This document shows, in pieces, positions 1-13,870 of a stretch of 29,483 nt of DNA (positions are counted from its first letter, which is position 1; each line of letters begins with the position of its first letter). This DNA is from an uncultured Acidobacteriota bacterium. GTDB taxonomy: Bacteria; Acidobacteriota; Blastocatellia; Pyrinomonadales; Pyrinomonadaceae. The DNA lies in assembly GCA_902826385.1 (NCBI GenBank), contig CADEEU010000003.1:1-29483 (forward strand), written 5' to 3'. The notes below the pieces were generated by a model. The model saw only the letters and a program-made list of their open reading frames with translations, did not search any database and was not told the DNA's origin. A program made the position numbers and the translations under genes.

Positions 1-1494
1 CGCGCGTTTTTTACCCGGCGGATTCAATCCTGTATTTTTGCACAGGTTGCATTTCACCGCGAGCAGATCGTCGGTTGCCGTGACCGGAGGTGGAAGCTTT
101 GTCTGCCCGAGTGAAAGAACGGAAAGCGCGCTTGAGATTAAGTTGACGTTTGTCTCGATGCCGCCGTGCATCGGCACCATCGATATCGCGTTGTAGGGAC
201 ATTGCGTCGCACAGTCGCCGCAGCCAATGCAGGTCGCGCGGTTGATGTCGATTTCGCCGTCGGGAAAGCGAGCAATGGCTCCGGTCGGGCACCCGGTCAG
301 GCATTCCGGGTCCTGGCAATGCATGCATACGGTCGGGACAAGGACACTTTGCGTTGCACTTCGCGTTGGTTTTACAGGCCGTTCGATGTGAATGCCGCGG
401 CGGACGAGACGCGATGTACCGTGCACTTTGTGACAGGCGAGCGAACAATTGCCGCAACGGATGCACTTCGCCATGTCCATCACGAGCAGGTTGACCGCAT
501 CGGCTATGCCGGTTTCTATCTCGCGGCTGGCGGCGGTCAGCGAACGTTTGTCATCGGGCGGCTCAGGGGCTTCAGACGGTCCTGTTTCCGACATCGCTTT
601 CAATGCGGGTACGACGGCATTGCGTAAATTTGCTTCGTCTCGAAGCCGCGTGACCGCAATCTCCAGCACCTCGATACGGCTGCGGGCGGTTGCGGTAAAT
701 TTCCAGTCGGCGGGTTTGTCTACCGCATTAAGCCCAAGGCACGTCCCGTCACCGATCAGGTCCATAGCGACCGAACCGTCATCGAGCAAAAGGTCGGCCG
801 CAAGCGGATTAAACTCCGCTCCGCTAACTCGCTGAAGCCAGCCGTTGCGGATGTAGATGACGCGATTTACCGGATCGCCCTCGCGAAAAAGAACGTGGTC
901 TTTTTCATAGACAACGAATCGAGCCGCGTCACCTAATTGCTTTCGAACGTCAGCCGTAAGCTGAGAGCCGGCGGCCTCGTTCAGTTCGTTCAAAGTTAAG
1001 GAAAGGCCGTATGAGCGGTAGTTTCGATCAAGAGCCTTACCGAATTTCGGTAGCTTGCGAAGCAGGCGAATAGCGGGGCGCATCATCTCGATCACGATCG
1101 CCGATTCATTACCGCTGACGATCACGGACGCACTTCGCGGCGTGCCGGAAAGCAAGGCCATTTCGCCGAACGAATTTCCGGGCGCAACCTCGCCTACTTT
1201 TCGCAGTGAGCCCTGATCGGTGACAGTGGCGTCAAGCTTACCGGTGACAAGAATATAGAAGATACTGCTTTCCCATGTGTTTTCGACGATGATCGTTTCG
1301 CCAGGCTGGTATTCGAGAAGCCGTGCGTAGGGACCGACTTTTTTGGCGCGATAGCTGCGGCCAAACAGAATGACGTCCATTTCAAGCTCATTCTTAAACT
1401 CCTCGTTCGGAAGTTTTTCGACAAGCTCTGAAACGATATCTACATTCTGGAACGCCTCGATGATCAGGTCGTGATTTGTAATTTCACGCGGCAT
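1..1494 (-). CDS. Two cyclic-nucleotide-binding domains fused to a DmsB/NrfC-type 4x[4Fe-4S] ferredoxin domain (3' end outside the window)
   Basis: Hand-translated, not in the ORF track. ATG at 1494 with GAGAGG upstream; the frame is open for 498 codons to the window edge. First cNMP cassette FGEMALLSGTPRSASV; second domain VLFREGDPVNRVIYIRNG. Cys motifs CIRCGNCSLAC, CMHCQDPECLTGCP, CIGCGDCATQCP and KCNLC. Confidence 0.88.
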   Translation of the reverse strand, partial: MPREITNHDLIIEAFQNVDIVSELVEKLPNEEFKNELEMDVILFGRSYRAKKVGPYARLLEYQPGETIIVENTWESSIFYILVTGKLDATVTDQGSLRKVGEVAPGNSFGEMALLSGTPRSASVIVSGNESAIVIEMMRPAIRLLRKLPKFGKALDRNYRSYGLSLTLNELNEAAGSQLTADVRKQLGDAARFVVYEKDHVLFREGDPVNRVIYIRNGWLQRVSGAEFNPLAADLLLDDGSVAMDLIGDGTCLGLNAVDKPADWKFTATARSRIEVLEIAVTRLRDEANLRNAVVPALKAMSETGPSEAPEPPDDKRSLTAASREIETGIADAVNLLVMDMAKCIRCGNCSLACHKVHGTSRLVRRGIHIERPVKPTRSATQSVLVPTVCMHCQDPECLTGCPTGAIARFPDGEIDINRATCIGCGDCATQCPYNAISMVPMHGGIETNVNLISSALSVLSLGQTKLPPPVTATDDLLAVKCNLCKNTGLNPPGKKRA

Positions 1495-1521
1495 CGGCCT
1501 CTCTTTTTCACCGAGAAGATA

Positions 1522-1923
1522 TTAGGTTGGTTTGGTGTAGAAGTAAAAAGCAACTCCGCCCGCAATGATCGCAAATGCGAATAAAAGTAAAAGTGCTGCC
1601 GAACCAACAACGATCCAAATGACGTAAGAGTTCTTTTTTGGTTCGGATTTCGGCAGTGCTACGGCCGGTTTAACGACGGGCTGAATTGGAATCTTTGTAA
1701 CGGGATTTAGAGGCTTATCCGGAGTTTCCGAAATGTTCAGGCCCATGTCCGACAGTACCATGTTGAACGCCGTTTGGCTGAACTGAATGGTGTTGCCTGA
1801 GGCTTCGAACTCAGAATTTTCGATCCGCTGCTGTTCAGCCTCAAGCGGACTGCCGCACCCGGGGCAGAATGCTTTTGCCGCGTCTGCCGTTTCTCCGCAA
1901 TTGTTACAACTTCTAATACCCAT
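1522..1923 (-). CDS. Zinc-ribbon protein with C-terminal transmembrane helix
   Basis: N-terminal CNNC-x10-CPGC, a Pro-rich linker and the hydrophobic segment YVIWIVVGSAALLLLFAFAIIAGGVAFYFY; it starts 5 nt after the upstream stop. Confidence 0.75.
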   Translation of the reverse strand: MGIRSCNNCGETADAAKAFCPGCGSPLEAEQQRIENSEFEASGNTIQFSQTAFNMVLSDMGLNISETPDKPLNPVTKIPIQPVVKPAVALPKSEPKKNSYVIWIVVGSAALLLLFAFAIIAGGVAFYFYTKPT

Positions 1924-1928
1924 GCGGA

Positions 1929-2576
1929 TCAGTTCGACTTGTGGCAGATAAGACAGTCCTGCGTGGTTGCAAAGCCCGGTTTCTTTTTCAGCTCAGGACG
2001 CAGCTTTGCGGCCGCATCGTGGCAGGTGTTGCAGTTGATGTGATAAGCAAGCTCGTTGTTGAGATCTTTTTTTATCGATTTGCCACCCTCGGTGTAGAGG
2101 GCTGTCGGCATCGTCTTATCGTCGGGAACACTTCCGTCCTGAAAGTGGCAGAAACGACATTCATTTACTTTTTGCGGTGAGGCTTTCCACGATTCGAGGG
2201 TCAGCGACACCTCTCTTTCGGAAGTAACGAGCGGGGATTTCATCGCCGACTTTGGTTGATCGGTATGATGGCATTCAACGCAGCCGACCACCGATTTGCC
2301 GTCCGGGCTGTAAGGCTTGAACGCATGTGTTTCATGACTGAAAGGAACTTCGCCATATTCGGACAAACTGTCCTTACCGAGCGTGAATTCCTTGCTCATC
2401 GTTTTGTCTGCCGCAGGGGGCTTAGCAGTCGTATTTGCGGTTGCGGGCGTCGGAGACGGTTTTGCCTGAGCCTGTACGGTGGTACGCAAATCCGGCAGAT
2501 CGACCGAACCGATCGCTATGAACGCCGCGGCCGAGACAAAAACTGTTATCACAAATATTTTCAATAGGTTGGTCAT
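1929..2576 (-). CDS. Tetraheme class III (c3-type) cytochrome c, exported or membrane-anchored
   Basis: Hydrophobic N-terminus; FSHETH, then CVECHH, CRFCH, YHINCNTCH and CLICH, which is the c3 ligand pattern. Confidence 0.9.
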   Translation of the reverse strand: MTNLLKIFVITVFVSAAAFIAIGSVDLPDLRTTVQAQAKPSPTPATANTTAKPPAADKTMSKEFTLGKDSLSEYGEVPFSHETHAFKPYSPDGKSVVGCVECHHTDQPKSAMKSPLVTSEREVSLTLESWKASPQKVNECRFCHFQDGSVPDDKTMPTALYTEGGKSIKKDLNNELAYHINCNTCHDAAAKLRPELKKKPGFATTQDCLICHKSN

Positions 2577-2602
2577 ACGGTGGGCCGGGAGAGGGCAATT
2601 AA

Positions 2603-2632: not shown

Positions 2633-2683
2633 TGATTTTGGGACGAGACGAATTCTGTATTTTTGCGACGTAACAATCCATTT

Positions 2684-3553
2684 CTAGTTCGGAAGCATGT
2701 CGAAGCCCGAGCCTGCGTGACATCGTTTGCAGTTGGCAAAATCGGCGTCGCCGAAAGCTCGAACGTTGTTGTGGCAGGTGGCACAGCTTGTTCGATTGCC
2801 GTCGGCTTTGCGATGACCGTGTACGAGAGGCAATGTAACCTGGCGTGATTGCGGAGCACGAGCAACAATATCGTGACACTCGTTACAGGAAACTCCTTGG
2901 GCAGAAGAATGAGATGCGTGGCTGAAAACCGCACGGAATGCGTATCGCGATTGCGGCGTGCGGCTGTAGGGGGCGAGTTCGTGACAGACGTTGCACGAAC
3001 CGATCTTGCTCTCCGGCGTGTGGCAGGATAAACAATCTGCGTGAGCACTTATCCCCGCGGGAATCGATTTAGCCGCACCGGCAGGTGAATGACACGCAAC
3101 GCAGCCGTTACGCGGCTCGGCGGCCCCGCGTGAGTGAACAGCGTGGTCGAACTTCATATTAAAGCCTTCTGAAAACTTTGCGGGAAATGCCGCAACCGTC
3201 GGCGGCGATACATTCAGGTCTTGATGACAAATGGCGCACATCTTCGGCTCTTGCGACGTGAACTGATTTAGATGACAGCCAATGCACGAATCGTGTCCGG
3301 CGTATTTCAATTCCATCGAAACCTTCAACGATCCGGATTCGCGTTGGTGGCAGGAATCGCAAGCGAAAGATTGATGCTCGGGAATGCGGTGAGAGAAATT
3401 TTCAAACGTTTTTTGCGAAGTTCGCACTAACGGAGGTTCGGGCGTTTCCAACGAGGTGATTGTCGGCTGAAGACGTTCGCCCTTTTGAAGGCACGATGCA
3501 ACAAAGATCGCGAATACGATTGCGAGAATGCCTTTCTTTAAGAATGTTTTCAT
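2684..3553 (-). CDS. Nonaheme cytochrome c lipoprotein (three c7-like triheme modules)
   Basis: Start reassigned to ATG 3553 (MKTFLKKGILAIVFAIFVASC, lipobox-like VASC). Nine motifs: CDSCH, CIGCH, CAICH, CVACH, CLSCH, CNVCH, CNECH, CATCH, CKRCH, in triplets each preceded by F[S/D]H..H. Confidence 0.88.
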   Translation of the reverse strand: MKTFLKKGILAIVFAIFVASCLQKGERLQPTITSLETPEPPLVRTSQKTFENFSHRIPEHQSFACDSCHQRESGSLKVSMELKYAGHDSCIGCHLNQFTSQEPKMCAICHQDLNVSPPTVAAFPAKFSEGFNMKFDHAVHSRGAAEPRNGCVACHSPAGAAKSIPAGISAHADCLSCHTPESKIGSCNVCHELAPYSRTPQSRYAFRAVFSHASHSSAQGVSCNECHDIVARAPQSRQVTLPLVHGHRKADGNRTSCATCHNNVRAFGDADFANCKRCHAGSGFDMLPN

Positions 3554-3588
3554 TAACGCGGTTTGTTGGCCTGCTTCATTCCATCCAC

Positions 3589-4611
3589 TCAATTCTGATG
3601 GCTCGGCGGAATCGGGAACCTTCCGACCTCGGGCGAATGGCAGTAAATACACTGAAACGTCGGTTTCTTTTCCTCCAAACTCGCCTCCCGTTTTCCGATC
3701 TCTTCGCGAATCACAGGTCCGTGGCACGAACTCGTGCTGCACGTCAGGATAGGCACGTCCGCATCCTTCATCTTTGCTATGTCGGAGTTTTGCGCAATTC
3801 GGACGTGACAGGTCATACAGTCTTTATTGACGTGGTTTTTGCTCAAGTGATCGAACTTTATCGAATACCGGCTGATTGTGTTCGAATCGAAATACGGTGT
3901 CGTCAATTTATGACAACCCGCGCAATCAGTACGGGCGGGTTTTTGATTTTGATAATGACACGTGAAACAGGACGCATGCGAGTTCGGCGAATCTTTGAAA
4001 AAACCTGCAGCGGGCAGAAACGCTCCGGTCGCTGCTTCGACAAGCGGCTTCACCCCAGCTGAAACACGCGGGCCGTATTTTGGAAGTTTTTCCGTCGTTT
4101 TATGACAGATCGCGCAGTTATTGAATTCAGGCGTTTTCGGATCGTCTGCGGATCGAAAATTAGTCGGAACAAAATGGGCGACCACAGTTTCCGTTTGTTT
4201 GACGTTCCTTGCGATCAAATCCTGATGGACGTCGTGAGGGAAAACAATTGAAAATTCCTGCGAACGGGAACGAACGGGAAACGGAAATCTGGCCGCACCT
4301 CGTGGGCCGGGATTCGTGTGACAACCCGCACAGATCGCCGGTCGGTTACCGCTGAAAAAATCGCGGCGGTGACAATTGATGCATGATGCATGGCCCGGAA
4401 AGTCAGCGACGTCCGGATAGCCGCGAGTTGAAACCCAATTGGACGTCGGAACTTTGTGGCATGAACTGCAGTCGATCTTTTTGTGTGAAGCAGAGGCGTG
4501 CGAGAACCCTTTGTCACGCCGCTGGGCCGAAGCCGGGTCGGACGGACCGAGAAACATCACGGCCGCAGCCGACGCAAAAAAAGCAAAAATGAACAAGACG
4601 CGAAGTTTCAT
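3589..4611 (-). CDS. Nonaheme cytochrome c (three c7-like modules; 8 CXXCH plus 1 CX4CH), Sec signal peptide
   Basis: ATG 4611 overlaps the upstream TGA (ATGA). Motifs CSSCH, CINCH, CAGCH, CAICH, CFTCH, CAGCH, CMTCH, CSTSSCH, CIYCH; signal peptide ends ASA-Q. Confidence 0.88.
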   Translation of the reverse strand: MKLRVLFIFAFFASAAAVMFLGPSDPASAQRRDKGFSHASASHKKIDCSSCHKVPTSNWVSTRGYPDVADFPGHASCINCHRRDFFSGNRPAICAGCHTNPGPRGAARFPFPVRSRSQEFSIVFPHDVHQDLIARNVKQTETVVAHFVPTNFRSADDPKTPEFNNCAICHKTTEKLPKYGPRVSAGVKPLVEAATGAFLPAAGFFKDSPNSHASCFTCHYQNQKPARTDCAGCHKLTTPYFDSNTISRYSIKFDHLSKNHVNKDCMTCHVRIAQNSDIAKMKDADVPILTCSTSSCHGPVIREEIGKREASLEEKKPTFQCIYCHSPEVGRFPIPPSHQN

Positions 4612-5372
4612 TTTTGCTCGCACGCTCCTGTTCCGCATTGCGGCAGATCTTTCACGATGACTTCACAATTTTTTATTGTTTTACCCGCTTCCGGCACCTG
4701 TAAATTAAGTTTTGCCGTTTTGCCTGGTTCGACCGAAACCTCGCACGCCCAGACATAGCTCTTCTTTCCCACTTCCATCGCCAAGATGTTCGACACCGTA
4801 AACTTTGTCGCGACCGGCACCGGAATATCAATGAAGATAGATTTGACCGTAATGGTATCGGTCATCGACGACTGAAGCGGTTTTGCGTTACCGAGCAGGG
4901 TTTCCGAAAGCGTTCGTTTTTGAAGGTAAAAACCGTTGACCAGGTTCGCCGACATGTTGGTCAAAAGCCAGTCACGGGCGATCGCGGGTTTAGATCGGAA
5001 CTGCGTCATGCCTTTTGTGAATGCCGCCTTAAATTCCGGCACACTCTGAATCTCGCTCTCCGACGGCGTCCGGCAATATGGCGATTCGCAATCGGCCGCC
5101 TGCAGCCAGCAGATGAACGGCTGGCTGGCCTTCGCCCGCTTGTAATAGCAATCACGCGAAACGACCTCGGCGGTTCTGATCCGCTCGAGCAGGGAAGAGT
5201 TTTCTTTGAGTCCACCAGTAAAAAGATAGAAACGTTTCCGCGTCAACTTCTCCACCTTGCCGTCGATCTTCACCCGGCCTGAAACTTCGAGAGCTCCTGT
5301 CGAGGCAGCCTGCGGCAAAGCCATCGGTGCCAGAAGAAACGTTAAGAATGTGACAGCGAGACAGCGAGGCAT
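4608..5372 (-). CDS. Hypothetical secreted Cys-rich protein
   Basis: 254-aa ORF with a signal-peptide-like start and 8 Cys in the mature part but no CXXCH; tightly coupled to both neighbours (3-nt gap, 4-nt overlap). Confidence 0.75.
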   Translation of the reverse strand: MPRCLAVTFLTFLLAPMALPQAASTGALEVSGRVKIDGKVEKLTRKRFYLFTGGLKENSSLLERIRTAEVVSRDCYYKRAKASQPFICWLQAADCESPYCRTPSESEIQSVPEFKAAFTKGMTQFRSKPAIARDWLLTNMSANLVNGFYLQKRTLSETLLGNAKPLQSSMTDTITVKSIFIDIPVPVATKFTVSNILAMEVGKKSYVWACEVSVEPGKTAKLNLQVPEAGKTIKNCEVIVKDLPQCGTGACEQK

Positions 5373-5375
5373 AAT

Positions 5376-7031
5376 CTACGGCAGAGTCGGACGGGCTGGG
5401 AACTTTAAGAAAGGAAGCCGGACGCCGCGTACCAGCACTCGGTCGGAACGCATCTCGACGGCAGGGGCAAAATTATTCGCACCTGCGGCAGCTATAAAAT
5501 CGTCCTGATCGATGCCGTCGCCGCTAACCCCGATTCCGCCCGCGAGCACGCCGCCTTTGTAAATTGGCAGGCCGCCTGCAAAAATCTGAATACCGTTCGG
5601 TAATTCCGGAATTGTTGTGCACGGACACGGAGCCATGCCGCCGCGTTTCTGTCGGCCGTACGCGCGACAGCTTACAGGCGGAGAAACGAGAGCGGTCCGA
5701 ATAAGATCCAACTGAAGCCCCACATTGAACGGGCTCCAATTAGAAAGCGGCGTGCTGAACGGACCAGCAGTTGTATTATTAATACCGTCCGGGAACAGAG
5801 GTCGATGTAGAAAACCAACCGCACGGTCACTAAACGCCACCGAGCCGTTCAAACCAATTCCGTCCGCCGCCGCTCTCGTAACGTAGCTGCCAAATCCGGC
5901 GGCGTTCAATTTTGTCGCAGCGTCCGGACGCGCGAAGAACATCGACGTACGCGCCTTTTGTACCGAAACGTCCAGCCCAAAAATCGGAGCATCGTTTTGA
6001 CCGAAAATTCCAAGAACCGCGCCGTTGACATCGACCACGGCGACGTTCACACGCGCGTTGCCGCCGATCGGCTGACGAATCCCGGCTCTCGTGATATTCG
6101 CGATCTGTGCCGCCGAGGCGAGTATCTGCTGAACGTCCGCAAGCGTCAGAACCGTTCCGGCCGTTGTTGGAAAACGTACAGTCGCTCGTCCCGGAACCCC
6201 ACCCGCCGTCGTTGGAAAAAAATCGCTCGCCGGCGCGGCTATTACAGGAGCGGTAACGCTACCAGGCAGACTGCCGAACGGCGTCGTCGGCACGTCCGGC
6301 ACGGTCGCATTGTTTAGATAGGGAAGCCGGATTCCTTCGACAAGAATATTGTCGCCGCGGATCAGTGGCGGCGATTCAAATCCGCGCACTGCGGCGATCG
6401 CAATGATCTCTTCCACAGCCTGATCGTTATCCAGCGGGTTGCGATCGATCGTGTAAAGTCCGTCGCCCTCAATACCGACGCCTCCGACCGCGAATCCATT
6501 TTTATAAACCGGTATGCCGCCGGGATCGCCGGAAAGCCCGAGAGGCAAACCCTCGATCGCAACATCCGAACACGGAAGAGTGGAAAATTGCACGCCGTAA
6601 AGCGGTCCACCGGGACGATTGTCGATGCCGGGCGGGAAATGTTCCTGAATGATGAACGAAGCCGTGCGAGTGGTGAATGCGTTACCGGACGTAGAAAACA
6701 AGCCGGCCGTGCCAGCCTTTGAATACGAAGCCGCGGCGCTCGGCACGATCAAATTCTCGAGTCCCTGACCGGCCGTTCCGACGCTTCTGATAAGCGTCGT
6801 TGATGATGCGCCGGTCATCGCGAATGTGCCCAGCAGATTACCCTCATTGTCCGTAACTGAAACCGTTACGCGCTGATTCAATGCGCCAGCGGCAGAAACG
6901 GCCTGCGCAATTATCCGCTGAACATCGACGACTGTAAGACTGTTTTGAGAAAAGACAGGAAGATTAAAAAGAAGCAGGATCGCGGCACTGGCAAAAAACT
7001 CAAATTTTTTCACCCGGCATTTTCGGTTCAT
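5376..7031 (-). CDS. Secreted heme-binding protein with two GlcG/HbpS (DUF336) domains
   Basis: Two repeats of LT..DVQ.I.A.A...A...V.V.V.D..G..LG.F, each followed by G.P.YK.G...GG.G..GDG.D motifs; N-terminal signal peptide (VFS-Q). The start could alternatively be the GTG six codons downstream. Confidence 0.82.
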   Translation of the reverse strand: MNRKCRVKKFEFFASAAILLLFNLPVFSQNSLTVVDVQRIIAQAVSAAGALNQRVTVSVTDNEGNLLGTFAMTGASSTTLIRSVGTAGQGLENLIVPSAAASYSKAGTAGLFSTSGNAFTTRTASFIIQEHFPPGIDNRPGGPLYGVQFSTLPCSDVAIEGLPLGLSGDPGGIPVYKNGFAVGGVGIEGDGLYTIDRNPLDNDQAVEEIIAIAAVRGFESPPLIRGDNILVEGIRLPYLNNATVPDVPTTPFGSLPGSVTAPVIAAPASDFFPTTAGGVPGRATVRFPTTAGTVLTLADVQQILASAAQIANITRAGIRQPIGGNARVNVAVVDVNGAVLGIFGQNDAPIFGLDVSVQKARTSMFFARPDAATKLNAAGFGSYVTRAAADGIGLNGSVAFSDRAVGFLHRPLFPDGINNTTAGPFSTPLSNWSPFNVGLQLDLIRTALVSPPVSCRAYGRQKRGGMAPCPCTTIPELPNGIQIFAGGLPIYKGGVLAGGIGVSGDGIDQDDFIAAAGANNFAPAVEMRSDRVLVRGVRLPFLKFPARPTLP

Positions 7032-7042
7032 GGCCGCAATGA

Positions 7043-7071
7043 TTTTTATACGTTATCGATTTGCGAGTCAA
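7043..7071 (-). promoter_or_regulatory. Possible sigma70 promoter for the leftward operon
   Basis: The minus strand reads TTGACT-N17-TAAAAA. Confidence 0.35.
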
Positions 7072-7119
7072 GCAGTTTTGCACAGGATGCGGAAGCTGAC
7101 GCCTTAGTGTGTGCAACTG

Positions 7120-7128
7120 TGCTATGAT
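7120..7128 (+). promoter_or_regulatory. Possible extended -10 promoter for the rightward operon
   Basis: TG-C-TATGAT, 53 nt upstream of the ATG at 7182. Confidence 0.4.
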
Positions 7129-7181
7129 GCTCGCGGTTTTTTTAAGAAGTCTTCGAGTAGTCGTGCAAACCATCTGCGTCG

Positions 7182-9281
7182 ATGCCTGTTGACCGAATAA
7201 AACTTACAACCGCCATTTTCATTGTTCTCGTCGTCGGGACATTGTGTTCGTTCGCACAGAATTCCAACGGCCGACTTATTGGAAAGGTTCTCGATGCGGA
7301 CAGCAAACCGCTCGCGGGCGTTACCGTTGTCGTCACCAACCAAACGACATCGCAGACACGAACTGAAATTACGGAATCGGATGGAGAATTTTCTTTTCGC
7401 CTCCCGGAAGGGGCCTACAAAATAAGCGTTGCCGATCCATTTGAAGCCAGGTTTGATCGGGGCAAGGTCGCCGAATATGGAACGTTCGCAAACGTAATCT
7501 GCGATCAAACAAAGAAGCTCTGCCCTACGCTTGAGAACGTAATAATCGACGGAGGCGAGAAGAAAATAGAATTCATCGCCGTCGATACTTCGAAAACAGA
7601 CCCAACCAAACCTGAAAGCAAAAAAGAGCCGGACAGCCGCGAAACGCTCGATCGGTGGCGAATAGGCTTTCCCGAATACGACCGCTACGGCGACAAAGGT
7701 GCACGCGGACGCGACATTCCGTTTCGCCGAAGCCGCTGGTACGACCCCTATAATCAAAACGTTCTCAAAGGCGACAAACCGATTTTCGGCGACGATTATT
7801 TCATCGTGTTGTCGGCGGTGAGTACGACCGGTTTCGAATTACGCCGAACGCCATCCGGCAATAACGTCAGCTCAAACGAACCAGCCAGCAATAATTTTTT
7901 CGGCCGCCCTGAGAGCCTTTCTTTTAACCAAACAATTCAGCTTTCGTTCGAACTGTTCAAAGGCCAAACCGTTTTTCAGCCGAGGCAATGGGCGATAAAA
8001 ATTTCACCGACGTTCAGTGTGCCGAACTACCTGAACGCTCGCGAAAACGGCATCGTTAACATCGACGTCCGTCGCGGAACAAACCGCGTGGATCTTCATG
8101 CCTCACTCGAAGAGGCGTTCGCCGAGGTGAAGTTGTTCGACACGAACGACAATTACGACTTCGTCTCCGTGCGTGCCGGCATTCAGCCCTTTACCGCCGA
8201 CTTCCGCGGTTTTCTTTATTCGGACAACAACCTCGGCATTCGCACTTTTGGGGCGTTTTCGAACAATAAATCGCAGTTTAACTTTGCGTATTTTCGACAG
8301 CTTGAAAAAGACACGAACAGCAATCTGAACTCATTGGAAGAATTGCGTGGCCAGGACATTTTTATCGGCAATTTTTTCCGGCAGGATTTTTTGTTTAAGG
8401 GCTACACCATCCAAGGCGTCGCCGCATACAACCATGACCGGGCAGACACGCATTACGACAGCAACGGTTTTCTGGTGCGGCCGGCATTGGTCGGCAGTTT
8501 TCAACCGCACGCGGTGAAGGCCGGTTATATTGGCATTAACGGCGACGGTCACATCGGCTGGCTGAACCTGACGAACTCCTATTACTTTTCATTCGGCGAG
8601 GACGAGTTCAATCCGATAGCGGGACGCAGAACACAGATCAGAGCACACATGGCGGCGGTCGAGGCATCCGTTGACCGTGACTGGCTTCGGTATAAAGTTT
8701 CTGCTTTTTATGCCTCCGGCGATAAAGAGCCGACAGATGATAAAGCGGGCGGCTTTGACGCCATTTTCGATGACCCAAATTTCGCGGGCGGACAATTTTC
8801 CTATTGGAACCGTCAGGGCATTCGGCTTGTCTCGACCGAGATCGGGCTGGTGCAGCCGAACAGCCTGTTGCCAAGTTTGCGTTCGAGCAAAACCGAAGGC
8901 CAGGCGAACTTCGTAAATCCCGGGCTGATGCTTTTCAACCTAGGCGTCGATGCCGAGGTGACGCAAACGGTCAAGGCAATATTCAATGCGAATTATTTGC
9001 GTTTCGATCGCACCGAACCACTCGAATATGTTTTGTTCCAACCACGTGTACGGCACGAAATCGGCACCGATTTGAGCCTAGGCGTAATCTACCGGCCGTT
9101 TTTGGTCAACAATATGACATTCACCTTCGGCGGCAATATTTTCCTGGCCGGCAAGGGCTTTCGCGACGTTTATACCGACCGTTCACGGAACTGTCCGATA
9201 CCAAGCTTCTGCACGCCCGACGTGCCGAACCCATCGAAGCCGCAGTACACGTTGTTTAGTCAGATGAAGTTGATATTTTAA
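7182..9281 (+). CDS. Outer-membrane beta-barrel protein with N-terminal carboxypeptidase-regulatory-like domain
   Basis: Signal peptide (SFA-Q); domain GRLIGKVLDADSKPLAGVTVVVTN...GEFSF.LPEGAYKI; many alternating amphipathic strands; terminal beta-signal QMKLIF. Confidence 0.8.
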   Translation: MPVDRIKLTTAIFIVLVVGTLCSFAQNSNGRLIGKVLDADSKPLAGVTVVVTNQTTSQTRTEITESDGEFSFRLPEGAYKISVADPFEARFDRGKVAEYGTFANVICDQTKKLCPTLENVIIDGGEKKIEFIAVDTSKTDPTKPESKKEPDSRETLDRWRIGFPEYDRYGDKGARGRDIPFRRSRWYDPYNQNVLKGDKPIFGDDYFIVLSAVSTTGFELRRTPSGNNVSSNEPASNNFFGRPESLSFNQTIQLSFELFKGQTVFQPRQWAIKISPTFSVPNYLNARENGIVNIDVRRGTNRVDLHASLEEAFAEVKLFDTNDNYDFVSVRAGIQPFTADFRGFLYSDNNLGIRTFGAFSNNKSQFNFAYFRQLEKDTNSNLNSLEELRGQDIFIGNFFRQDFLFKGYTIQGVAAYNHDRADTHYDSNGFLVRPALVGSFQPHAVKAGYIGINGDGHIGWLNLTNSYYFSFGEDEFNPIAGRRTQIRAHMAAVEASVDRDWLRYKVSAFYASGDKEPTDDKAGGFDAIFDDPNFAGGQFSYWNRQGIRLVSTEIGLVQPNSLLPSLRSSKTEGQANFVNPGLMLFNLGVDAEVTQTVKAIFNANYLRFDRTEPLEYVLFQPRVRHEIGTDLSLGVIYRPFLVNNMTFTFGGNIFLAGKGFRDVYTDRSRNCPIPSFCTPDVPNPSKPQYTLFSQMKLIF

Positions 9282-9401: not shown

Positions 9402-12400
9402 ATGATCGCAAAGAGCAACAAACAAAATCGGCTCAAGCTCATCGTCCTGATCGTCTTTGCGTTTCTCGCGACGGTGGTTTATTGGAAACATTCCTCGCAC
9501 GCTCAGAATGCGGCGAACACGAACGGTCGTCCTGCCCCATCGACTGAGACCTCAACGACACCGACCACAACGCCGGAAGTAAAACTCGAAGGCTGCCTGA
9601 AATGTCATAACAACATAGAGCCGATGCATCGCTACAACACTCGCGGCGATGTGTTCGATACGCTCGATGAAGGGAGGGATGCACAGGGCCTAACCTGCAC
9701 GGCATGTCATGGCGGCAACCCGGCGGCGATCACGCAAAGGGAAGCTCACGTGCAGCCGAAATTTCCGAAAGAGTGGAATTGCAAAAACGGAGATTGTTCC
9801 AGCCGAAATCCGGAGCGTACGAACACGCTGCTCGCACGCGAAAGCTCGGAATTTGTGAGGTTCGTGAATCCCGGCGATTTTCGTGTCATCGCACAATCCT
9901 GTGGAGAATGCCACGCGGACGAAAATCAAAAAGTTTCACGCGGGATGATGGCCCACGGGGCGATGTTGTGGGGAGCGGCCCTTTATAACAACGGCTCGCA
10001 TCCGATCAAGGATGCCCAGTTCGGCGAAAGCTACGACGAGAACGGCAACCCGCAAACTTTGTTTCAAGCACCGAAACCGACGCGCGAAGATCAGGCCTCG
10101 AAAGGCCATCTCGAATTCTTGAGCCCGTTGCGGCGATGGGAGATCTCACAGCCGGGCAATGTACTTCGCGTCTTCGAACGCGGCGGCAAACGCCGGTTGG
10201 AGGTTGGGCTGCCCGATAAAGAGGAAGAAGGCGGAAAGCCGGATAAAGGCCTGAGCCCTCGCGGATTGGGCACAAACAACCGCACCGATCCGGTTTTTCT
10301 CGGCATACAAAAAACTCGACTGCTCGACCCGACTTTAAATTTCCTTGGCACTAACGATCACGCCGGCGATTACCGTTCGGCCGGCTGTACTGCGTGTCAC
10401 GTGATTTATGCGAACGACACTGGCGTCGCCGCCAGTTCCTATGCTGCGGCAGGTAATCGCGGATTCTCGCAATCGGCGGACACGAGCATTCCGAAAAACG
10501 AAGCCGGTCATCCGATAAAACATCAGTTCACATCGCGCATCCCGACCACGCAGTGTATGACCTGCCACATGCATCCGGGCACGAATATGGTCGCCACCTA
10601 CTTAGGGCAAACGTGGTGGGACAATGAATCGGACGGAAAAGCGATGTACCCGCAGGATCGGCAGATCAACCCGACGCAGGCTGACGAGGTGAAAAAGCTC
10701 GACAAGAATCCCGAAGGAGCGAGCTTGCGTGGGCTTTGGACCGATTCCGTGTTCTTACAAAACACCGGCACCGCCGATTTCAACAGCAAATTGAAAAATG
10801 TCCAGTTCGCCGATTCGCACGGACACGGGTGGATGTTCAAGAACGTCTATAAAAAAAACCGGAAGGGAAATTTGCTCGATGCGGAAAATAAAATAGTTTC
10901 GCCCGATGATCCCGACAAATTCAAAAAAGCCGTACATCTTAAGGACATCCACCTCGAAAAAGGGATGCACTGCGCCGACTGTCACTTCAGCCAGGACAGC
11001 CACGGTACGGGCATTCTCTACAACGAGCCGCGGGCGGCAGTCGAGGTCGGGTGTGTCGATTGTCACGGATCGATAACGGCCCGTGCGAATGGAATAACAA
11101 GCGGCCCGGCAGCGATGGCTCCGGAAAACCGCAATGAATTGCGTCTTCGCGAACAACAGAAAAAACCACTCATCGGCCGCGACCTGACACGGCTGCGATT
11201 CCGAACGCCGGACGGGAAGCGGACGCCGGTGATGGAAATTTTGACCCGCGACACGACGCGAAAAGACGTCGCCGGAAACGACATCCAGTTGAAACGCGGC
11301 GACGTGATCCAAAATTCCATTGTCGAACCCGGCCTTTGGTGGAAGGTGAAGCAAACCGCCGACACCGTCACGCCCGCCAGCCCTGATTACAACGAAAAAT
11401 CAGCCTACGCCAAAACAATGCAGCGGGACAACGCAACATGGGGCGACGTGAATGTGGCGGAGAATAAACTCGCGCATCAGGACAAAAGCATCACCTGCTA
11501 CGCCTGTCACACGTCTTGGGTGACGAGCTGTTTCGGCTGCCATCTGTCGATGGAGGCGAACCGCAAGATGCCGAACCGCCACAACGAAGGCGGCGATTCG
11601 CGCAACTTTACTTCATATAATTTTCAGGTGATCCGCGACGATATTTTTATGCTTGGCAAAGATGGAACTGTTACAGGACATAAAGTCGCTCCCGTTCGGT
11701 CGAGCTCGGCTGTGCTGGTCTCGTCGCGCAACCAGAACCGTGAATGGATCTATCACCAGCAGCAAACGGTCTCGGCCGAAGGATTTAACGGGCAGGCGTT
11801 TAATACGCACGTGCCGCATACCGTCCGCGGCAAAGAAACGCAGTCGTGCTCCGACTGTCACATGTCCAAAGACCGCGACAATAATGCGTGGCTCGCCCAG
11901 GTGATGCTGCAGGGCAGCAACTTCGTGAACTTTATGGGGCGCTACGTTTATGTCGCGACCGAACACGCGCTTGAGGCCGTCGCCGTCACCGAACACACCG
12001 AACCGCAGGCCGTTTATGGAAGCAATCTGCACCGGCTGGCGTACAAGGACAATTTCGAAAAGTTCGTAAACGGCGGTCGCGAGCTAAAAGAGTATTACGA
12101 AAACAAAGGCCGCCCCGAAGCCTTGCAAGTACAAGTACGCGGCGAGTATGCCTATGTCGCTGCCGGCAAGGGCGGCCTGCGCGTTTACGACATCGCCCAG
12201 ATCGATCACAAGGGGTTTTCCGAACGCATAGTGACCGCTCCAGTCTCGCCGCTCGGGCAACGGTTTTACGTCGATACCAAAAATGCGGTCGCCGTTGCCG
12301 CGCCTTCCATGCTTGCGGTCGATCCAGCAAGATGGCGAACCGTGCGAAATAACGACGGCACTTACAAACAGGTGCCGCCTGAAGAAGCACTAAAATTAAA

Positions 12401-13388
12401 CGCCGAAGCGAAAGCCGCAGGTAAACCTGCCCCAGCAGTTAACGAAGAAGGCCCGATCCATCCGCTATACGCCTATCTATACGTAGCCGATAAAGAGGAG
12501 GGCTTGATCCTGGTCAATGCTGTGACTTTGCTCGACGGCGACCCGCGAAATAATTTTCTAAGTCGAGCCCTGACCTACAATCCCAGCGGCACATTGACTG
12601 GCTCGAACAATATCACGCTCGCGGGAAATTTTGCTTACATTACGACCGAAAAAGAATTGGTGATCGTCGATCTTTCGACGCCTCTGGAACCGAAGATCGC
12701 CGTGCAGATTCCGTTGAATCGACCGAAAGCGGTCGCGGTACAATTTCTATATGCGTTTGTCGTTGACGCAGACGGGATGAAAGTTCTGGATATAAAAGAA
12801 CTTCAGACTTCGGGCAAAGTTTCGCTTGTTGAAACGGCGGTCGTGCCGATTAAAGACGCGAAGGACATTTACGTCGCCCGCACATATGCCTATGTCGCGA
12901 ACGGCTCGGAGGGCGTCGCGATAATCAATGTCGAACGGCCCGAAAATCCGAAACTCGACCAGACATTCAACGATGGAGGCGGCATCAACGACACACATTC
13001 GATAAAAGTCGCGATGACCAATGCCAGCCTTTACGCCTACGTCGCCGACGGCAAAAACGGCCTGAAAGTTTTGCAGTTGACCGACCCGGAAACAATGCCC
13101 GAGTACGCTGGCTTTAGCCCGCGGCCGCAACCGAAACTGATCGCAAGTTTCAAAACAAAAGGCGACGCACTCTCTATCTCAAAAGGCCTCGACCGCGACC
13201 GGGCCGTCGATGAAAGCGGCAACCAGATCGCCGTGTTCGGCCGCCGCGGAGCCAGGCCCTTCACATTCAACGAACTGATGCGGATGCTGCGAAGCGATGA
13301 CGGCAAAGGCGAGTTCTTCTGGGTTTCGGACGAACCGAATAAGCCTTCCCACGCTAAACTCTCGCCGTTATTTTCCTTATACTGGTAA
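9402..13388 (+). CDS. Large exported decaheme cytochrome c fused to C-terminal LVIVD-repeat beta-propeller
   Basis: ATG 9402, signal peptide ending SHA-Q. Ten CXXCH: CLKCH, CTACH, CGECH, CTACH, CMTCH, CADCH, CVDCH, CYACH, CFGCH, CSDCH. Repeats include GEYAYVAAGKGGLRVYDI, YLYVADKEEGLILVN, GNFAYITTEKELVIVDLS, TYAYVANGSEGVAIINV and YAYVADGKNGLKVLQL. Confidence 0.88.
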   Translation: MIAKSNKQNRLKLIVLIVFAFLATVVYWKHSSHAQNAANTNGRPAPSTETSTTPTTTPEVKLEGCLKCHNNIEPMHRYNTRGDVFDTLDEGRDAQGLTCTACHGGNPAAITQREAHVQPKFPKEWNCKNGDCSSRNPERTNTLLARESSEFVRFVNPGDFRVIAQSCGECHADENQKVSRGMMAHGAMLWGAALYNNGSHPIKDAQFGESYDENGNPQTLFQAPKPTREDQASKGHLEFLSPLRRWEISQPGNVLRVFERGGKRRLEVGLPDKEEEGGKPDKGLSPRGLGTNNRTDPVFLGIQKTRLLDPTLNFLGTNDHAGDYRSAGCTACHVIYANDTGVAASSYAAAGNRGFSQSADTSIPKNEAGHPIKHQFTSRIPTTQCMTCHMHPGTNMVATYLGQTWWDNESDGKAMYPQDRQINPTQADEVKKLDKNPEGASLRGLWTDSVFLQNTGTADFNSKLKNVQFADSHGHGWMFKNVYKKNRKGNLLDAENKIVSPDDPDKFKKAVHLKDIHLEKGMHCADCHFSQDSHGTGILYNEPRAAVEVGCVDCHGSITARANGITSGPAAMAPENRNELRLREQQKKPLIGRDLTRLRFRTPDGKRTPVMEILTRDTTRKDVAGNDIQLKRGDVIQNSIVEPGLWWKVKQTADTVTPASPDYNEKSAYAKTMQRDNATWGDVNVAENKLAHQDKSITCYACHTSWVTSCFGCHLSMEANRKMPNRHNEGGDSRNFTSYNFQVIRDDIFMLGKDGTVTGHKVAPVRSSSAVLVSSRNQNREWIYHQQQTVSAEGFNGQAFNTHVPHTVRGKETQSCSDCHMSKDRDNNAWLAQVMLQGSNFVNFMGRYVYVATEHALEAVAVTEHTEPQAVYGSNLHRLAYKDNFEKFVNGGRELKEYYENKGRPEALQVQVRGEYAYVAAGKGGLRVYDIAQIDHKGFSERIVTAPVSPLGQRFYVDTKNAVAVAAPSMLAVDPARWRTVRNNDGTYKQVPPEEALKLNAEAKAAGKPAPAVNEEGPIHPLYAYLYVADKEEGLILVNAVTLLDGDPRNNFLSRALTYNPSGTLTGSNNITLAGNFAYITTEKELVIVDLSTPLEPKIAVQIPLNRPKAVAVQFLYAFVVDADGMKVLDIKELQTSGKVSLVETAVVPIKDAKDIYVARTYAYVANGSEGVAIINVERPENPKLDQTFNDGGGINDTHSIKVAMTNASLYAYVADGKNGLKVLQLTDPETMPEYAGFSPRPQPKLIASFKTKGDALSISKGLDRDRAVDESGNQIAVFGRRGARPFTFNELMRMLRSDDGKGEFFWVSDEPNKPSHAKLSPLFSLYW

Positions 13389-13396
13389 GAGTTAGA

Positions 13397-13870
13397 ATGC
13401 AGAACAAAGAGCAAGACATCGAAACGAAATACAAAACCCTTGTCGTTCTTTGGGCGGCGATGATCGTTTCGCAACTTCTTTTTGTACTGGTGATTTTTTT
13501 CACCCGGCCAAAGCTTTTTCAGCTCGATTTCGGTCAGCCGCTGCTCGGTGATGGCGACCACGGCAGCACCGGGGCCGTGGTAATAGGCTTCGCTGTCGCC
13601 GCGATTACGGCCGTTGCTTTTTCTTTTGCGTTCCGCCGTCGCCTAAACGAGCGTGCCGTTGCCGAGCAAAGTCCGGCAAACGTACAGACCGGTTTCATTA
13701 TTGCCCTCGCATTCTCAGAAGCCGCTTCCCTTTTCGGCCTGGCCCTGGCGTTTGCGTTCGATTATCAATATTTCTTTCTTTGGATGATTCTCGGGATCGC
13801 GGCGATGATTCTGCATTTTCCAAAGCGCACAGAATTCCACGCGGCCAGCTACAAACAAAATCTTTCGTAA
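13397..13870 (+). CDS. Four-TM membrane protein of unknown function
   Basis: 157 aa with four hydrophobic segments; starts 8 nt after the decaheme gene stop. Confidence 0.78.
   Translation: MQNKEQDIETKYKTLVVLWAAMIVSQLLFVLVIFFTRPKLFQLDFGQPLLGDGDHGSTGAVVIGFAVAAITAVAFSFAFRRRLNERAVAEQSPANVQTGFIIALAFSEAASLFGLALAFAFDYQYFFLWMILGIAAMILHFPKRTEFHAASYKQNLS

What the first reader, a model, noticed from the sequence alone, without database searches (positions are those of the whole stretch)
1..13870. Candidate undescribed envelope-spanning redox system: 32 heme-c motifs, a beta-barrel, a double GlcG protein and a cNMP-gated ferredoxin in one divergent locus
Seen: two divergent, tightly coupled gene runs around the 150-bp gap at 7032-7181. 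They encode an OM barrel, a decaheme-LVIVD protein, two nonaheme c7-type cytochromes (one a lipoprotein), a tetraheme c3, a secreted 2xGlcG heme binder and a cytoplasmic 2xcNMP-4x[4Fe-4S] protein. Established: adjacent barrel plus multiheme genes define porin-cytochrome conduits (MtrAB, Geobacter Pcc), and c7 polymers act as periplasmic wires. The components here are not MtrA/MtrB-like, and no quinol oxidase (NrfD/CymA type) lies in the window. Inference: an electron chain from cytoplasm to cell surface, or a redox-sensing or heme-processing machine regulated by a cyclic nucleotide. I recall similar gene sets annotated as hypothetical in other bacteria but know of no functional study; this needs checking.
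Basis: partly seen in the sequence, partly recalled or inferred. Interest (0 to 1): 0.88.

Follow-up and report, generated by a model that had tools for sequence, protein, structure and literature searches.

The report
Envelope-spanning multihaem electron-transfer gene cluster
A wastewater acidobacterium carries a conserved, functionally untested set of genes that appears to wire cytoplasmic NAD(P)H through both membranes' compartments to a ten-haem enzyme sitting under a small outer-membrane channel, and the same kit occurs in cultivable aerobic bacteria of other phyla.

Summary
In detail: ten genes in two divergent runs, with 31 CXXCH plus one CX4CH motif. The organism is a Pyrinomonadaceae MAG from wastewater. 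The window is a whole contig. The minus-strand operon continues on contig C20 of the same MAG. There the cNMP/4x[4Fe-4S] protein gains a five-helix membrane domain with two WX3HX13H motifs (ferric-reductase/NOX-like, putative dihaem b). An FHA-anchored heptahaem cytochrome and a thioredoxin-reductase-like flavoprotein follow.

The barrel, decahaem-LVIVD protein, 2xGlcG protein and this inner-membrane module are co-conserved, with rearranged gene order and domain shuffling. They occur in Acidobacteriota and Alphaproteobacteria (Erythrobacter, Tsuneonella, Sphingopyxis, Phenylobacterium). Nevskia carries all but the 2xGlcG gene; a Planctomycetota-type contig shows only the barrel-decahaem pair. 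The barrel is an 18-strand AlgE-like channel, not an MtrB-type sheath.

Best reading: an outward, NAD(P)H-fed, second-messenger-gated electron chain ending in a periplasmic decahaem-propeller enzyme docked under a dedicated channel. The substrate is unknown.

It is not wholly undescribed. It matches most defining features of the in-silico "PCC4" cluster (He et al. 2017), and a 2026 preprint flags the FHA-cytochrome trio. I found no functional study. This scan has already flagged the barrel-decahaem pair on other acidobacterial DNA.

The parts
1..1494 (-). A: N-terminal 498 aa of a cNMP-binding x2 + 4x[4Fe-4S] protein, cut by the contig end. Its C-terminal 5-TM domain with two WX3HX13H motifs lies on contig C20 of the same MAG.
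   Evidence: Pfam cNMP_binding 81 bits and Fer4_11. NCBIfam DsrO/ArrB/DmsB-like, below cut-offs. Full-length relatives are 826-829 aa. Own-genome continuation at C20:18384-19256. His633/647 and His805/819 (L016 numbering) are invariant.
1522..1923 (-). B: zinc-ribbon protein with a C-terminal TM helix. Lineage-specific accessory of unknown role.
   Evidence: Weak zinc-ribbon Pfam hits. Conserved in 22 of 27 close relatives with a full flank. Not found in the proteobacterial clusters.
1929..2576 (-). C: tetrahaem c3/c7-like cytochrome with an N-terminal hydrophobic anchor or signal.
   Evidence: 4 CXXCH. Sub-threshold c3/c7 Pfam hits. Conserved in Pyrinomonadaceae relatives.
2684..3553 (-). D: nonahaem c7-type lipoprotein cytochrome.
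   Evidence: 9 CXXCH and lipobox VASC. Cytochrome_C7 69 bits, three stretches.
3589..4638 (-). E: secreted c7-type cytochrome with 8 CXXCH + 1 CX4CH. The start is probably Met10 at 4611, overlapping the stop of F.
   Evidence: Cytochrome_C7 42 bits.
4608..5372 (-). F: secreted 254-aa protein with no known family. Conserved within Pyrinomonadaceae only.
   Evidence: No Pfam or NCBIfam hit. Present in 30 of 45 loci with a full flank.
5376..7031 (-). G: secreted double HbpS/GlcG-like (DUF336) protein. A core component conserved across phyla.
   Evidence: Pfam HbpS-like 65 bits. Weak PDB sequence matches to EfgA/GlcG, NahX and PduO-C. Present in 41 of 45 loci. 39-41% identity (E about 1e-110) to genes at the same position in Alphaproteobacteria. 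Alignment A3.
7032..7181 (.). Divergent intergenic region. It holds a conserved -35/-10-like block (about 7042-7071) reading towards G.
   Evidence: Promoter-like hit on the minus strand (the number of hits in the region is at background). The block is conserved in an alignment of 25 related intergenic regions.
7182..9281 (+). H: outer-membrane protein. It has a periplasmic CarboxypepD_reg domain (30-84), an invariant linker motif (157-200) and an 18-strand AlgE-like barrel (206-698).
   Evidence: Pfam. AlphaFold2 model, pLDDT 70, 18 strands. Foldseek best hit AlgE, E 4e-15, TM 0.64-0.70 by target. 1996 cluster representatives at E<=1e-3.
9402..13388 (+). I: secreted decahaem protein (haem domain to about residue 850) fused to a C-terminal LVIVD beta-propeller. 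The start is probably the ATG at 9402.
   Evidence: 10 CXXCH, all invariant in 16 class-level homologues; each of four cross-phylum homologues also has 10. LVIVD 73 bits. 45% identity over 1281 aa to the Nevskia homologue. More than 7788 relatives. Only the propeller is well modelled.
13397..13870 (+). J: small multi-TM protein 8 bp after I. Its membership of the system is doubtful.
   Evidence: No family. No homologue next to I in 80 related loci at the threshold used.

Best explanation
The locus is the Pyrinomonadaceae version of a cross-phylum, functionally untested, envelope-spanning electron-transfer system of the 'PCC4' type.

Shown:
- The gene set is conserved as a unit.
- The component domains are as described.
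- The barrel has an 18-strand AlgE-like fold.
- The operon continues on contig C20.

Inferred path:
1. A membrane-anchored thioredoxin-reductase-like flavoprotein with two [4Fe-4S] clusters (N, on C20) takes electrons from NAD(P)H.
2. It passes them to the four [4Fe-4S] clusters of A.
3. A's C-terminal five-helix domain carries them across the inner membrane on two b haems bound by the two WX3HX13H motifs, as in ferric reductase/NOX/MsrQ.
4. The FHA-anchored heptahaem cytochrome M and the periplasmic cytochromes C, D and E relay them.
5. The decahaem-propeller protein I is the terminal oxidoreductase. It stays in the periplasm and docks with its propeller on the periplasmic turns of channel H. 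H admits the substrate or releases the product rather than sheathing a cytochrome.
6. G is a conserved periplasmic accessory.

The cNMP domains of A and the FHA domain of M put electron flow under second-messenger and phospho-threonine control. The direction is most likely outward (a reductase), because inward flow to NAD(P)+ runs against both redox potential and membrane potential. The substrate is unknown.
For: Co-conservation in Blastocatellia:
- H-I is adjacent in 16 of 16 class-level loci and in 58 of 65 named loci.
- G is present in 41 of 45 loci with a full flank.
- Different gene orders keep the same set together (L059, L067, L075, L083, L088, L092).

Cross-phylum:
- Nevskia sp., L113 and L119 carry a [PNDR-cNMP-Fer4] protein, an IMP, an FHA-like-TM decahaem, a barrel and a decahaem-LVIVD protein.
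- Seven Alphaproteobacteria carry [4-haem][2xGlcG][barrel][decahaem-LVIVD]; in five the IM module lies convergent in the fetched stretch.

Homology:
- I is 39-45% identical across phyla.
- H is 34-40% identical across phyla.
- The Fe-S part of A matches at E 1e-37.
- The TM domain of A matches the separate IMP at E 1e-12.
- M matches the FHA-like cytochromes at E 1e-9.

Other evidence:
- Pairwise distances of G, H and I correlate (rho 0.79-0.84).
- The WX3HX13H motifs are present in the MAG's own A and in the proteobacterial IMPs.
- The flavoprotein best matches the YpdA/TrxR family, below cut-off.
- H is an 18-strand AlgE-like barrel.
- H plus the I propeller: ipSAE 0.43, best of 3 controls 0.00. 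This is 'weak support'. The mark was reached by 58 of 80 solved complexes and 2 of 110 mismatched pairs, but only 7 of those 80 passed at a score of 0.60 or under. All contacts fall on periplasmic turns of H (topology).
- The 10 haems of I are spread over about 830 residues, and all 10 motifs are invariant in 16 class-level homologues, with 10 counted in each of four cross-phylum homologues. That looks like an enzyme rather than a wire.
- Named hosts such as Erythrobacter and Nevskia are aerobic heterotrophs to my knowledge (names).
Against: - No experiment or expression data exist, and no RNA run was listed.
- No cofactor (b haems, FAD, Fe-S) is demonstrated.
- The direction of flow rests on thermodynamic argument alone.
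- The haem domain of I could not be modelled (pLDDT below 50), so no active site is identified.
- The H-I docking score is only weak support.
- The cytochromes C, D, E and proteins B and F are lineage-specific. The periplasmic relay therefore differs between phyla.
- Some genomes carry only H-I at the locus, e.g. G014, G035 and G039.
- The system is patchy within the genus: 10 of 24 genomes in one draw, 0 of 7 in another.
Confidence: 0.55

Rival explanations
1. Inward electron-uptake conduit, the model He et al. drew for PCC4. An extracellular or periplasmic donor such as Fe(II) or Mn(II) is oxidised at the outer-membrane module, and electrons pass through the cytochromes to the inner-membrane b-haem protein, which reduces quinone.
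For: PCC4 was found in Fe(II)-oxidising Zetaproteobacteria, in Hyphomicrobium and in drinking-water-filter genomes. This MAG's DNA occurs in wastewater, biofilter and drinking-water metagenomes. The IMP signature resembles quinone-active cytochromes b.
Against: A 4x[4Fe-4S] domain is fused or adjacent on the cytoplasmic side, together with a TrxR-like flavoprotein. That is the architecture of NAD(P)H-to-outside carriers. Electrons from high-potential donors cannot reach NAD(P)+ without an energy input. The named carriers are ordinary aerobic heterotrophs and are not known iron oxidisers (physiology from my own knowledge).
Confidence: 0.2
2. Classical porin-cytochrome conduit. A periplasmic cytochrome (D, E or part of I) is threaded through barrel H, and I sits on the cell surface and reduces insoluble acceptors, as in MtrCAB or OmaB-OmbB-OmcB.
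For: A barrel gene sits next to a decahaem gene. LVIVD / 'choice-of-anchor B' propellers are typical of surface proteins. One acidobacterial cluster of structurally similar barrels carries a cytochrome c3 domain.
Against: The barrel has 18 strands and is most like AlgE; MtrB did not appear among the 50 best fold matches listed. I is 1328 aa, is not a lipoprotein, and no secretion genes are conserved in the cluster. The predicted H-I contacts lie on periplasmic turns (weak support). The NCBIfam ExtM hit is 68 bits against a cut-off of 800.
Confidence: 0.12
3. A redox-sensing, signalling or haem-handling machine rather than a catalytic chain. G (HbpS-like) senses or binds haem or oxidants, and the cNMP and FHA domains transmit the signal.
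For: HbpS of Streptomyces is an extracellular redox-stress sensor component (established knowledge). The cluster carries two kinds of signalling domain.
Against: No kinase, cyclase or DNA-binding output domain is conserved in the cluster. Thirty-nine c-haem motifs, a flavoprotein and Fe-S arrays are far more redox hardware than a sensor needs. G has no invariant His or Cys.
Confidence: 0.08
4. The two divergent operons are unrelated neighbours.
For: Some genomes have H-I without the other genes nearby (G014, G035, G039).
Against: The genes stay linked through several different gene orders and, for most of the set, across phyla.
Confidence: 0.02

Closest known systems
'PCC4' gene cluster, predicted in silico by He, Barco, Emerson and Roden 2017 (Front Microbiol, PMC5566968)
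   Same: A porin gene next to a decahaem cytochrome gene. A tetrahaem cytochrome. A roughly 300-aa five-helix inner-membrane protein with two WX3HX13H motifs, likened there to the ferric-reductase domain. A pfam13247 Fe-S protein upstream of it; in one genome the paper notes they were annotated as a single gene, matching the fusion seen in A here. Further 'redox' genes with shuffled domain order. Occurrence in Alpha-, Gamma- and Zetaproteobacteria, Planctomycetes and water-filter genomes.
   Different: The paper lists cytochromes of 4, 5 and 10 haems. Here they are 4, 9, 9, 7 and 10, and 4, 10 and 10 in the proteobacterial relatives I examined. The searchable text and held supplements mention no LVIVD propeller, no GlcG protein, no cNMP or FHA domain and no Acidobacteria. 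The paper proposed inward flow to quinone. Direct homology to its genes could not be tested, because the identifiers are in image-only tables.
FHA-nonahaem cytochrome / 5-TM protein / [4Fe-4S] protein trio of Ferrigenium straubiae (bioRxiv 10.64898/2026.01.22.701106)
   Same: A cytosolic FHA domain, one TM helix and a periplasmic multihaem domain, encoded next to a five-helix membrane protein and a 4Fe-4S protein. Function unknown.
   Different: That trio is described without a barrel or decahaem-propeller partner. Homology to M and A was not tested here.
MtrCAB / MtoAB / PioAB porin-cytochrome complexes
   Same: A barrel gene adjacent to a decahaem gene, and an envelope electron-transfer logic.
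   Different: MtrB has 26 strands and sheathes MtrA. H has 18 strands and is AlgE-like. I has a low haem density and a propeller. There is no family-level sequence match.
Eukaryotic/bacterial NOX, ferric reductase (FRE) and MsrQ (ferric-reductase transmembrane domain)
   Same: Two HX13H motifs on TM3 and TM5. A cytoplasmic nicotinamide-linked flavoprotein feeds a dihaem transmembrane domain that reduces an acceptor outside the cytoplasm. UniProt names the Alteraurantiacibacter homologue 'Ferric reductase like transmembrane component'.
   Different: There is no Pfam PF01794 match. It has five helices rather than six. An Fe-S array is interposed. The flavoprotein is TrxR-like rather than FNR-like. 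The acceptor is a multihaem chain.
AlgE alginate-export barrel (PDB 3rbh and others)
   Same: 18-strand barrel fold, Foldseek E 4e-15. The Erythrobacter homologue is named 'Alginate export domain-containing protein'.
   Different: 11-12% identity. No Alginate_exp Pfam hit for H. No alginate-synthesis genes nearby.
NHL-repeat beta-propeller proteins in the outer-membrane cytochrome clusters of Desulfovibrio ferrophilus IS5 (PMC5815863) and the Uet cluster of 'Ca. Tenderia' (10.1101/2022.05.06.490989)
   Same: Beta-propellers genetically tied to multihaem electron-transfer clusters.
   Different: Those are separate NHL-type proteins, not an LVIVD propeller fused to the cytochrome.

Membership tests
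PCC4 (He et al. 2017) | Outer-membrane barrel gene adjacent to a multihaem cytochrome gene | tested here: met
   H sits directly upstream of I in the window and in 58 of 65 related loci.
PCC4 (He et al. 2017) | Three periplasmic cytochromes with 4, 5 and 10 haem sites | tested here: inconclusive
   4 (C) and 10 (I) are present. The others have 9, 9 (D, E) and 7 (M) sites. Proteobacterial relatives have 4, 10 and 10.
PCC4 (He et al. 2017) | Inner-membrane protein with five TM helices and WX3HX13H on TM3 and TM5 | tested here: met
   Present as the C-terminal domain of A on contig C20: WMLSH..x13..H and WLPPH..x13..H. The histidines are invariant in five homologues. The domain is homologous to the separate roughly 300-aa IMPs.
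PCC4 (He et al. 2017) | SGXXG motif on TM4 of the inner-membrane protein | tested here: inconclusive
   Pyrinomonadaceae have SSGGL/SSGGA. SGXXG is present in 3 of 4 proteobacterial IMPs checked.
PCC4 (He et al. 2017) | Fe-S protein (pfam13247) upstream of the inner-membrane protein (subgroup II) | tested here: met
   Fer4_11 (PF13247) hit in A, which is fused to the membrane domain.
PCC4 (He et al. 2017) | Sequence homology to the published PCC4 genes | not testable with these tools
   The gene identifiers are only in figures and image-only supplementary tables.
MtrAB/MtoAB/PioAB | Large (about 26-strand) MtrB-type barrel able to sheathe a cytochrome | tested here: not met
   18 strands in the model. 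Best fold matches are AlgE, then OmpM1, chitoporin and Occ-type porins.
MtrAB/MtoAB/PioAB | MtrA/DmsE-type compact decahaem cytochrome | tested here: not met
   I has 10 haem sites in about 830 residues and no DmsE-family hit. Only M gives a sub-threshold hit, 42 bits against a cut-off of 192.
Geobacter Ext (ExtM and others) | NCBIfam equivalog score | tested here: not met
   ExtM 68 bits against a cut-off of 800; ExtN/ExtO 24 bits against 200.
Ferric-reductase transmembrane domain (NOX/FRE/MsrQ) | Two bis-His (HX13H) motifs on two TM helices | tested here: met
Ferric-reductase transmembrane domain (NOX/FRE/MsrQ) | Pfam PF01794 sequence match | tested here: not met
   No Pfam family at E<=10 for the domain.
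Ferric-reductase transmembrane domain (NOX/FRE/MsrQ) | Binding of two b haems | not testable with these tools
   Needs spectroscopy of the purified protein.
HbpS/GlcG (PF03928) | Pfam match above the gathering score | tested here: met
   65 bits against a cut-off of 25, three stretches covering two domains.
HbpS/GlcG (PF03928) | Haem binding or degradation | not testable with these tools
   No invariant His or Cys in the 15-sequence cross-phylum alignment.
AlgE / Alginate_export | 18-strand barrel fold | tested here: met
AlgE / Alginate_export | Alginate-biosynthesis gene context | tested here: not met
   No such genes in the window or in related loci.

The most novel reading that the evidence does not exclude
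A bacterial counterpart of NADPH oxidase/ferric reductase stretched across a Gram-negative envelope. It would be an NAD(P)H-fed chain, gated by cyclic nucleotide and phospho-threonine, that lets obligate aerobes push electrons to a periplasmic or extracellular acceptor through a decahaem-propeller enzyme docked under its own outer-membrane channel. The acceptor could be mineral Fe(III)/Mn(IV), humic quinones, or O2 giving superoxide. If the acceptor is O2, this could be an enzyme behind the widespread extracellular superoxide production of heterotrophic bacteria. That last link is pure speculation.
Probability: 0.3. Interest if true: 0.85.

Novelty: new variant of a known kind. Interest (0 to 1): 0.62.

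Why it matters
The system holds 39 c-type haem motifs in this MAG. Its decahaem component has thousands of relatives, and it occurs in Acidobacteriota and Proteobacteria, with the barrel-decahaem pair also in Planctomycetota. It has no known function, and it sits in ordinary aerobic heterotrophs rather than in metal respirers.

If the proposed path is right, it is a quinone-independent route for cytoplasmic reducing power to reach the periplasm or the outside, with regulatory domains built into the electron carriers themselves. That bears on iron and manganese cycling in soils, water filters and sludge, and on bacterial extracellular redox chemistry.

This work identified named, cultivable carriers: Tsuneonella dongtanensis, Erythrobacter insulae, Sphingopyxis microcysteis and Nevskia sp. 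That makes the question directly testable by genetics.

Tried and rejected
- PDB sequence searches found nothing for H or I.
- The AlphaFold2 model of I (residues 135-1334) failed for the haem domain (mean pLDDT 55). Its Foldseek hits are generic 7-8-bladed propellers and say nothing about function.
- Complex prediction of G with the I propeller gave no support and no evidence either way.
- Rfam found no riboswitch or other RNA in the window.
- Promoter and terminator scans were at background levels.
- No RNA-seq run holding the locus was listed, so co-expression could not be tested.
- NCBIfam hits to ExtM/ExtN/ExtO, DsrO, ArrB and others are all far below their cut-offs and were not used for naming.
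- Searches for LVIVD + multihaem/cytochrome, PCC3/PCC4, FHA + multihaem, HX13H and decahaem + propeller found no functional study.
- PCC3 was rejected as the match: its porins have up to 42 strands and its cytochromes a median of 34 and 21 haems.
- The Verrucomicrobia porin-MHC of He et al. 2017 (mSphere) has a porin of 20 or more strands and an octahaem cytochrome. It was considered, but homology could not be tested.
- The taxonomy of L113/G332 could not be named.
- The supplementary tables of the PCC4 paper are images.

Full report
**What is in the window**

The window is a whole 29.5-kb contig (C3) of a 3.7-Mb, 86%-complete MAG. Close homologues carry the names Pyrinomonadaceae, Pyrinomonadales or 'Chloracidobacterium sp.' (Acidobacteriota, Blastocatellia). 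Near-identical DNA is held in wastewater, biofilter and drinking-water metagenomes.

Minus strand:
- A: 2x cNMP_binding plus a DmsB-type 4Fe-4S array, running off the contig end.
- B: zinc ribbon plus a TM helix.
- C: 4 CXXCH.
- D: 9 CXXCH, with lipobox VASC.
- E: 8 CXXCH plus CSTSSCH.
- F: secreted, no family.
- G: double HbpS/GlcG.

Plus strand, after the 150-bp gap:
- H: CarboxypepD_reg domain plus barrel.
- I: 10 CXXCH plus LVIVD.
- J: small membrane protein.

The count is 31 CXXCH plus one CX4CH. Genes within each run are separated by a few bases or overlap, except for gaps of about 100 bp between C and D and between H and I.

**What lies left of position 1**

In two same-genus genomes the A gene encodes 826-829 residues. 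The extra 300 residues form about five TM helices. Two further genes follow A:
- M, an FHA domain, one TM helix and a heptahaem cytochrome.
- N, a membrane-anchored protein with two [4Fe-4S] clusters and a pyridine-nucleotide-disulfide oxidoreductase domain. Its best NCBIfam match is the YpdA/TrxR family, below cut-off.

The same MAG holds these genes at the end of contig C20: the A C-terminus, M with 7 CXXCH, and N. An unrelated convergent GH92 gene comes next. The contig break therefore falls inside gene A, about 35 codons are missing, and the cluster has 39 c-haem motifs.

The membrane domain of A has no Pfam match. It does carry two W-x3-H-x13-H motifs on separate helices, with the histidines invariant.

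**Co-conservation**

- Class level: in 16 loci from six families of the class, H and I are always adjacent, and G lies nearby in 10 of them.
- Named Blastocatellia loci: among 80 loci, H is directly upstream of I in 58 of 65 testable cases.
- Loci with a 10-kb flank: H is present in 45 of 45, G in 41 of 45, D/E/F in 30 of 45, and A in 22 of 45, where the flank just reaches it.
- Rearrangements: several genomes keep the same genes in other orders. Examples are A-M-N-H-I co-directional, H-I followed by convergent N-M-A-B-C, and H-I-M followed by convergent C-D-E-F-G. Linkage that survives rearrangement is a strong sign of a shared function.
- Distribution: patchy. 31 of 301 sampled Acidobacteriota have I, including all 11 sampled genomes of four other Blastocatellia families.

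**Beyond the phylum**

A profile of the barrel found 1996 cluster representatives among 1.84 billion proteins. The contexts of distant members show the following.
- Nevskia sp. and two unnamed lineages carry a C554-like tetrahaem cytochrome, a single PNDR-cNMP-4Fe-4S protein of about 800 aa, a membrane protein of about 300 aa, an FHA-like-TM decahaem cytochrome, the barrel and a decahaem-LVIVD protein.
- A Planctomycetota-type contig shows the barrel followed by the LVIVD protein.
- A sample of 401 genomes from the phylum of one of these lineages gave 8 carriers.
- The seven other than the query genome itself carry [tetrahaem][2xGlcG][barrel][decahaem-LVIVD]; five also show the convergent [FHA-cytochrome][IMP][PNDR-cNMP-Fe-S] module within the fetched stretch.
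- Six of the seven were looked up by exact sequence. They are Erythrobacter insulae, Tsuneonella sp., Alteraurantiacibacter aquimixticola, Qipengyuania sp., Sphingopyxis microcysteis and Phenylobacterium sp..

BLASTP ties the parts together:

| Component | Cross-phylum match |
|---|---|
| I | 39-45% identity over nearly its whole length, 10 haem motifs in each |
| H | 34-40% identity |
| G | 39-41% identity |
| Fe-S half of A | E 1e-37 to the fusion proteins |
| Membrane domain of A | E 1e-12 to the separate IMP |
| M | E 1e-9 to the FHA-like cytochromes |

The same functional set therefore exists with different gene fusions. Pairwise distances of G, H and I correlate (rho 0.79-0.84).

**The barrel**

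An AlphaFold2 model from a 16-sequence alignment (pLDDT 70) has 18 strands between residues 206 and 698. Its best PDB fold matches are all AlgE, at E 4e-15 and TM 0.64-0.70 by target. OmpM1, chitoporin and Occ-type porins follow, and no MtrB appears among the 50 best matches listed. The ESM Atlas gives the same picture.

The N-terminal domain varies between lineages: CarboxypepD_reg here, and SH3/AMIN, HEAT or none elsewhere. The linker motif DRWRIG..PE...NPY.QN.LKGD.PI is invariant.

An 18-strand AlgE-like barrel is a solute or polymer channel. It is not a sheath for a cytochrome.

**The decahaem-propeller**

All ten CXXCH motifs and 13 further histidines are invariant across the class. The haem density is low, at one per 83 residues. 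Both features fit an enzyme better than a wire.

The haem domain could not be modelled, and only the propeller folded with confidence. The fold search gave generic propellers.

A complex prediction of H (157-699) with the propeller scored ipSAE 0.43, against 0.00 for the best of three controls. The tool calls this 'weak support'. The mark was reached by 58 of 80 solved complexes and 2 of 110 mismatched pairs, but only 7 of those 80 passed at a score of 0.60 or under.

All H contacts (402-407, 456-462, 497-501, 591-596, 641) lie in the short turns. By the strand order of the model, and with the N-terminal domain in the periplasm, these turns are periplasmic. This fits a periplasmic I docked under the channel. 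G with the propeller gave no signal either way.

**Mechanism**

The proposed chain is a cytoplasmic TrxR-like flavoprotein, then an Fe-S array, then a five-helix bis-His domain, then a membrane-anchored multihaem cytochrome. This has the logic of NOX, ferric reductase or MsrQ: reducing power leaves the cytoplasm on two b haems. That step is inferred from motifs and was not shown here.

Outward flow is favoured. The electron moves down the membrane potential and down the redox scale. Inward flow to NAD(P)+ from donors such as Fe(II) would run against both.

The first cNMP domain keeps the canonical FGE...PRSA cassette (sequence). The FHA domain of M is conserved in Proteobacteria as an FHA-like fold. 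Regulation therefore appears to act on the carriers themselves.

The substrate of I is unknown.

**Comparison with the literature**

- He et al. 2017 (PMC5566968) described 'PCC4'. It comprises a porin, periplasmic cytochromes with 4, 5 and 10 haems, a five-helix inner-membrane protein with SGXXG and two WX3HX13H motifs, a pfam13247 Fe-S protein and other redox genes. It was found in Hyphomicrobium, in Zeta-, Gamma- and Alphaproteobacteria and in Planctomycetes, and the proposed model was inward. The present locus meets most of these features. It differs in haem counts and in the exact TM4 motif. The GlcG protein, the LVIVD propeller and the cNMP and FHA domains are not mentioned in the searchable text or in the supplements held. 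Direct homology could not be tested.
- A 2026 preprint on Ferrigenium notes an FHA-nonahaem / 5-TM / 4Fe-4S trio as novel and of unknown function.
- No functional study was found.

Earlier notes of this scan had already flagged the barrel-decahaem pair on other acidobacterial DNA and reached similar conclusions. They are not independent evidence.

**Verdict**

The finding is real and interesting, but it is not a first sighting. It is an acidobacterial variant of an in-silico-described, functionally unknown envelope redox system.

Noticed in passing
L120:10001-11635 (Logan SRR6986820 contig): A 544-aa member of the H barrel family (660 bits to the profile) sits on a contig that looks like a phage or plasmid. 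The contig has many small ORFs, a DNA polymerase III beta subunit, an HNH gene and type IV CRISPR genes Csf1/Csf3, with no cytochrome neighbour.
   Followed up: no
window:7042-7071: A -35/-10-like block (TTGACT, 18 nt, TAAAAT on the minus strand) ahead of G is conserved in an alignment of 25 related G-H intergenic regions. No comparably conserved block lies ahead of H.
   Followed up: partly
L130:10323-11867 (own genome, contig C20): The flavoprotein N of this MAG has 514 aa. It lacks about 106 residues (297-402) that are present in the 632-aa homologue of a same-genus genome.
   Followed up: no
L018:12755-13762: In one same-genus genome an NAD-dependent epimerase/dehydratase gene is inserted between the D and C cytochrome genes of the operon.
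   Followed up: no
L019 and L020 (G035:C2, G039:C2): Two 3.7-Mb, two-contig genomes of the class carry H-I on the roughly 1.0-Mb replicon, with no G, cytochrome or A/M/N genes within 14 kb. The outer-membrane pair can therefore occur without the rest at the same locus.
   Followed up: partly
window:15071-16393: A PilT-like ATPase gene lies 1.2 kb beyond J. A 42-43% identical PilT-like gene lies about 3 kb upstream of H in two relatives (L059, L075). The link may be chance.
   Followed up: no
window:16537-29468: The rest of the contig looks like an origin-proximal housekeeping region: rnpA, yidC, jag, mnmE, a ROK regulator, a TssB/TssC-like 491-aa ORF, mnmG, parA, parB and tatC. I read these from the translations only and ran no domain scan on them.
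   Followed up: no
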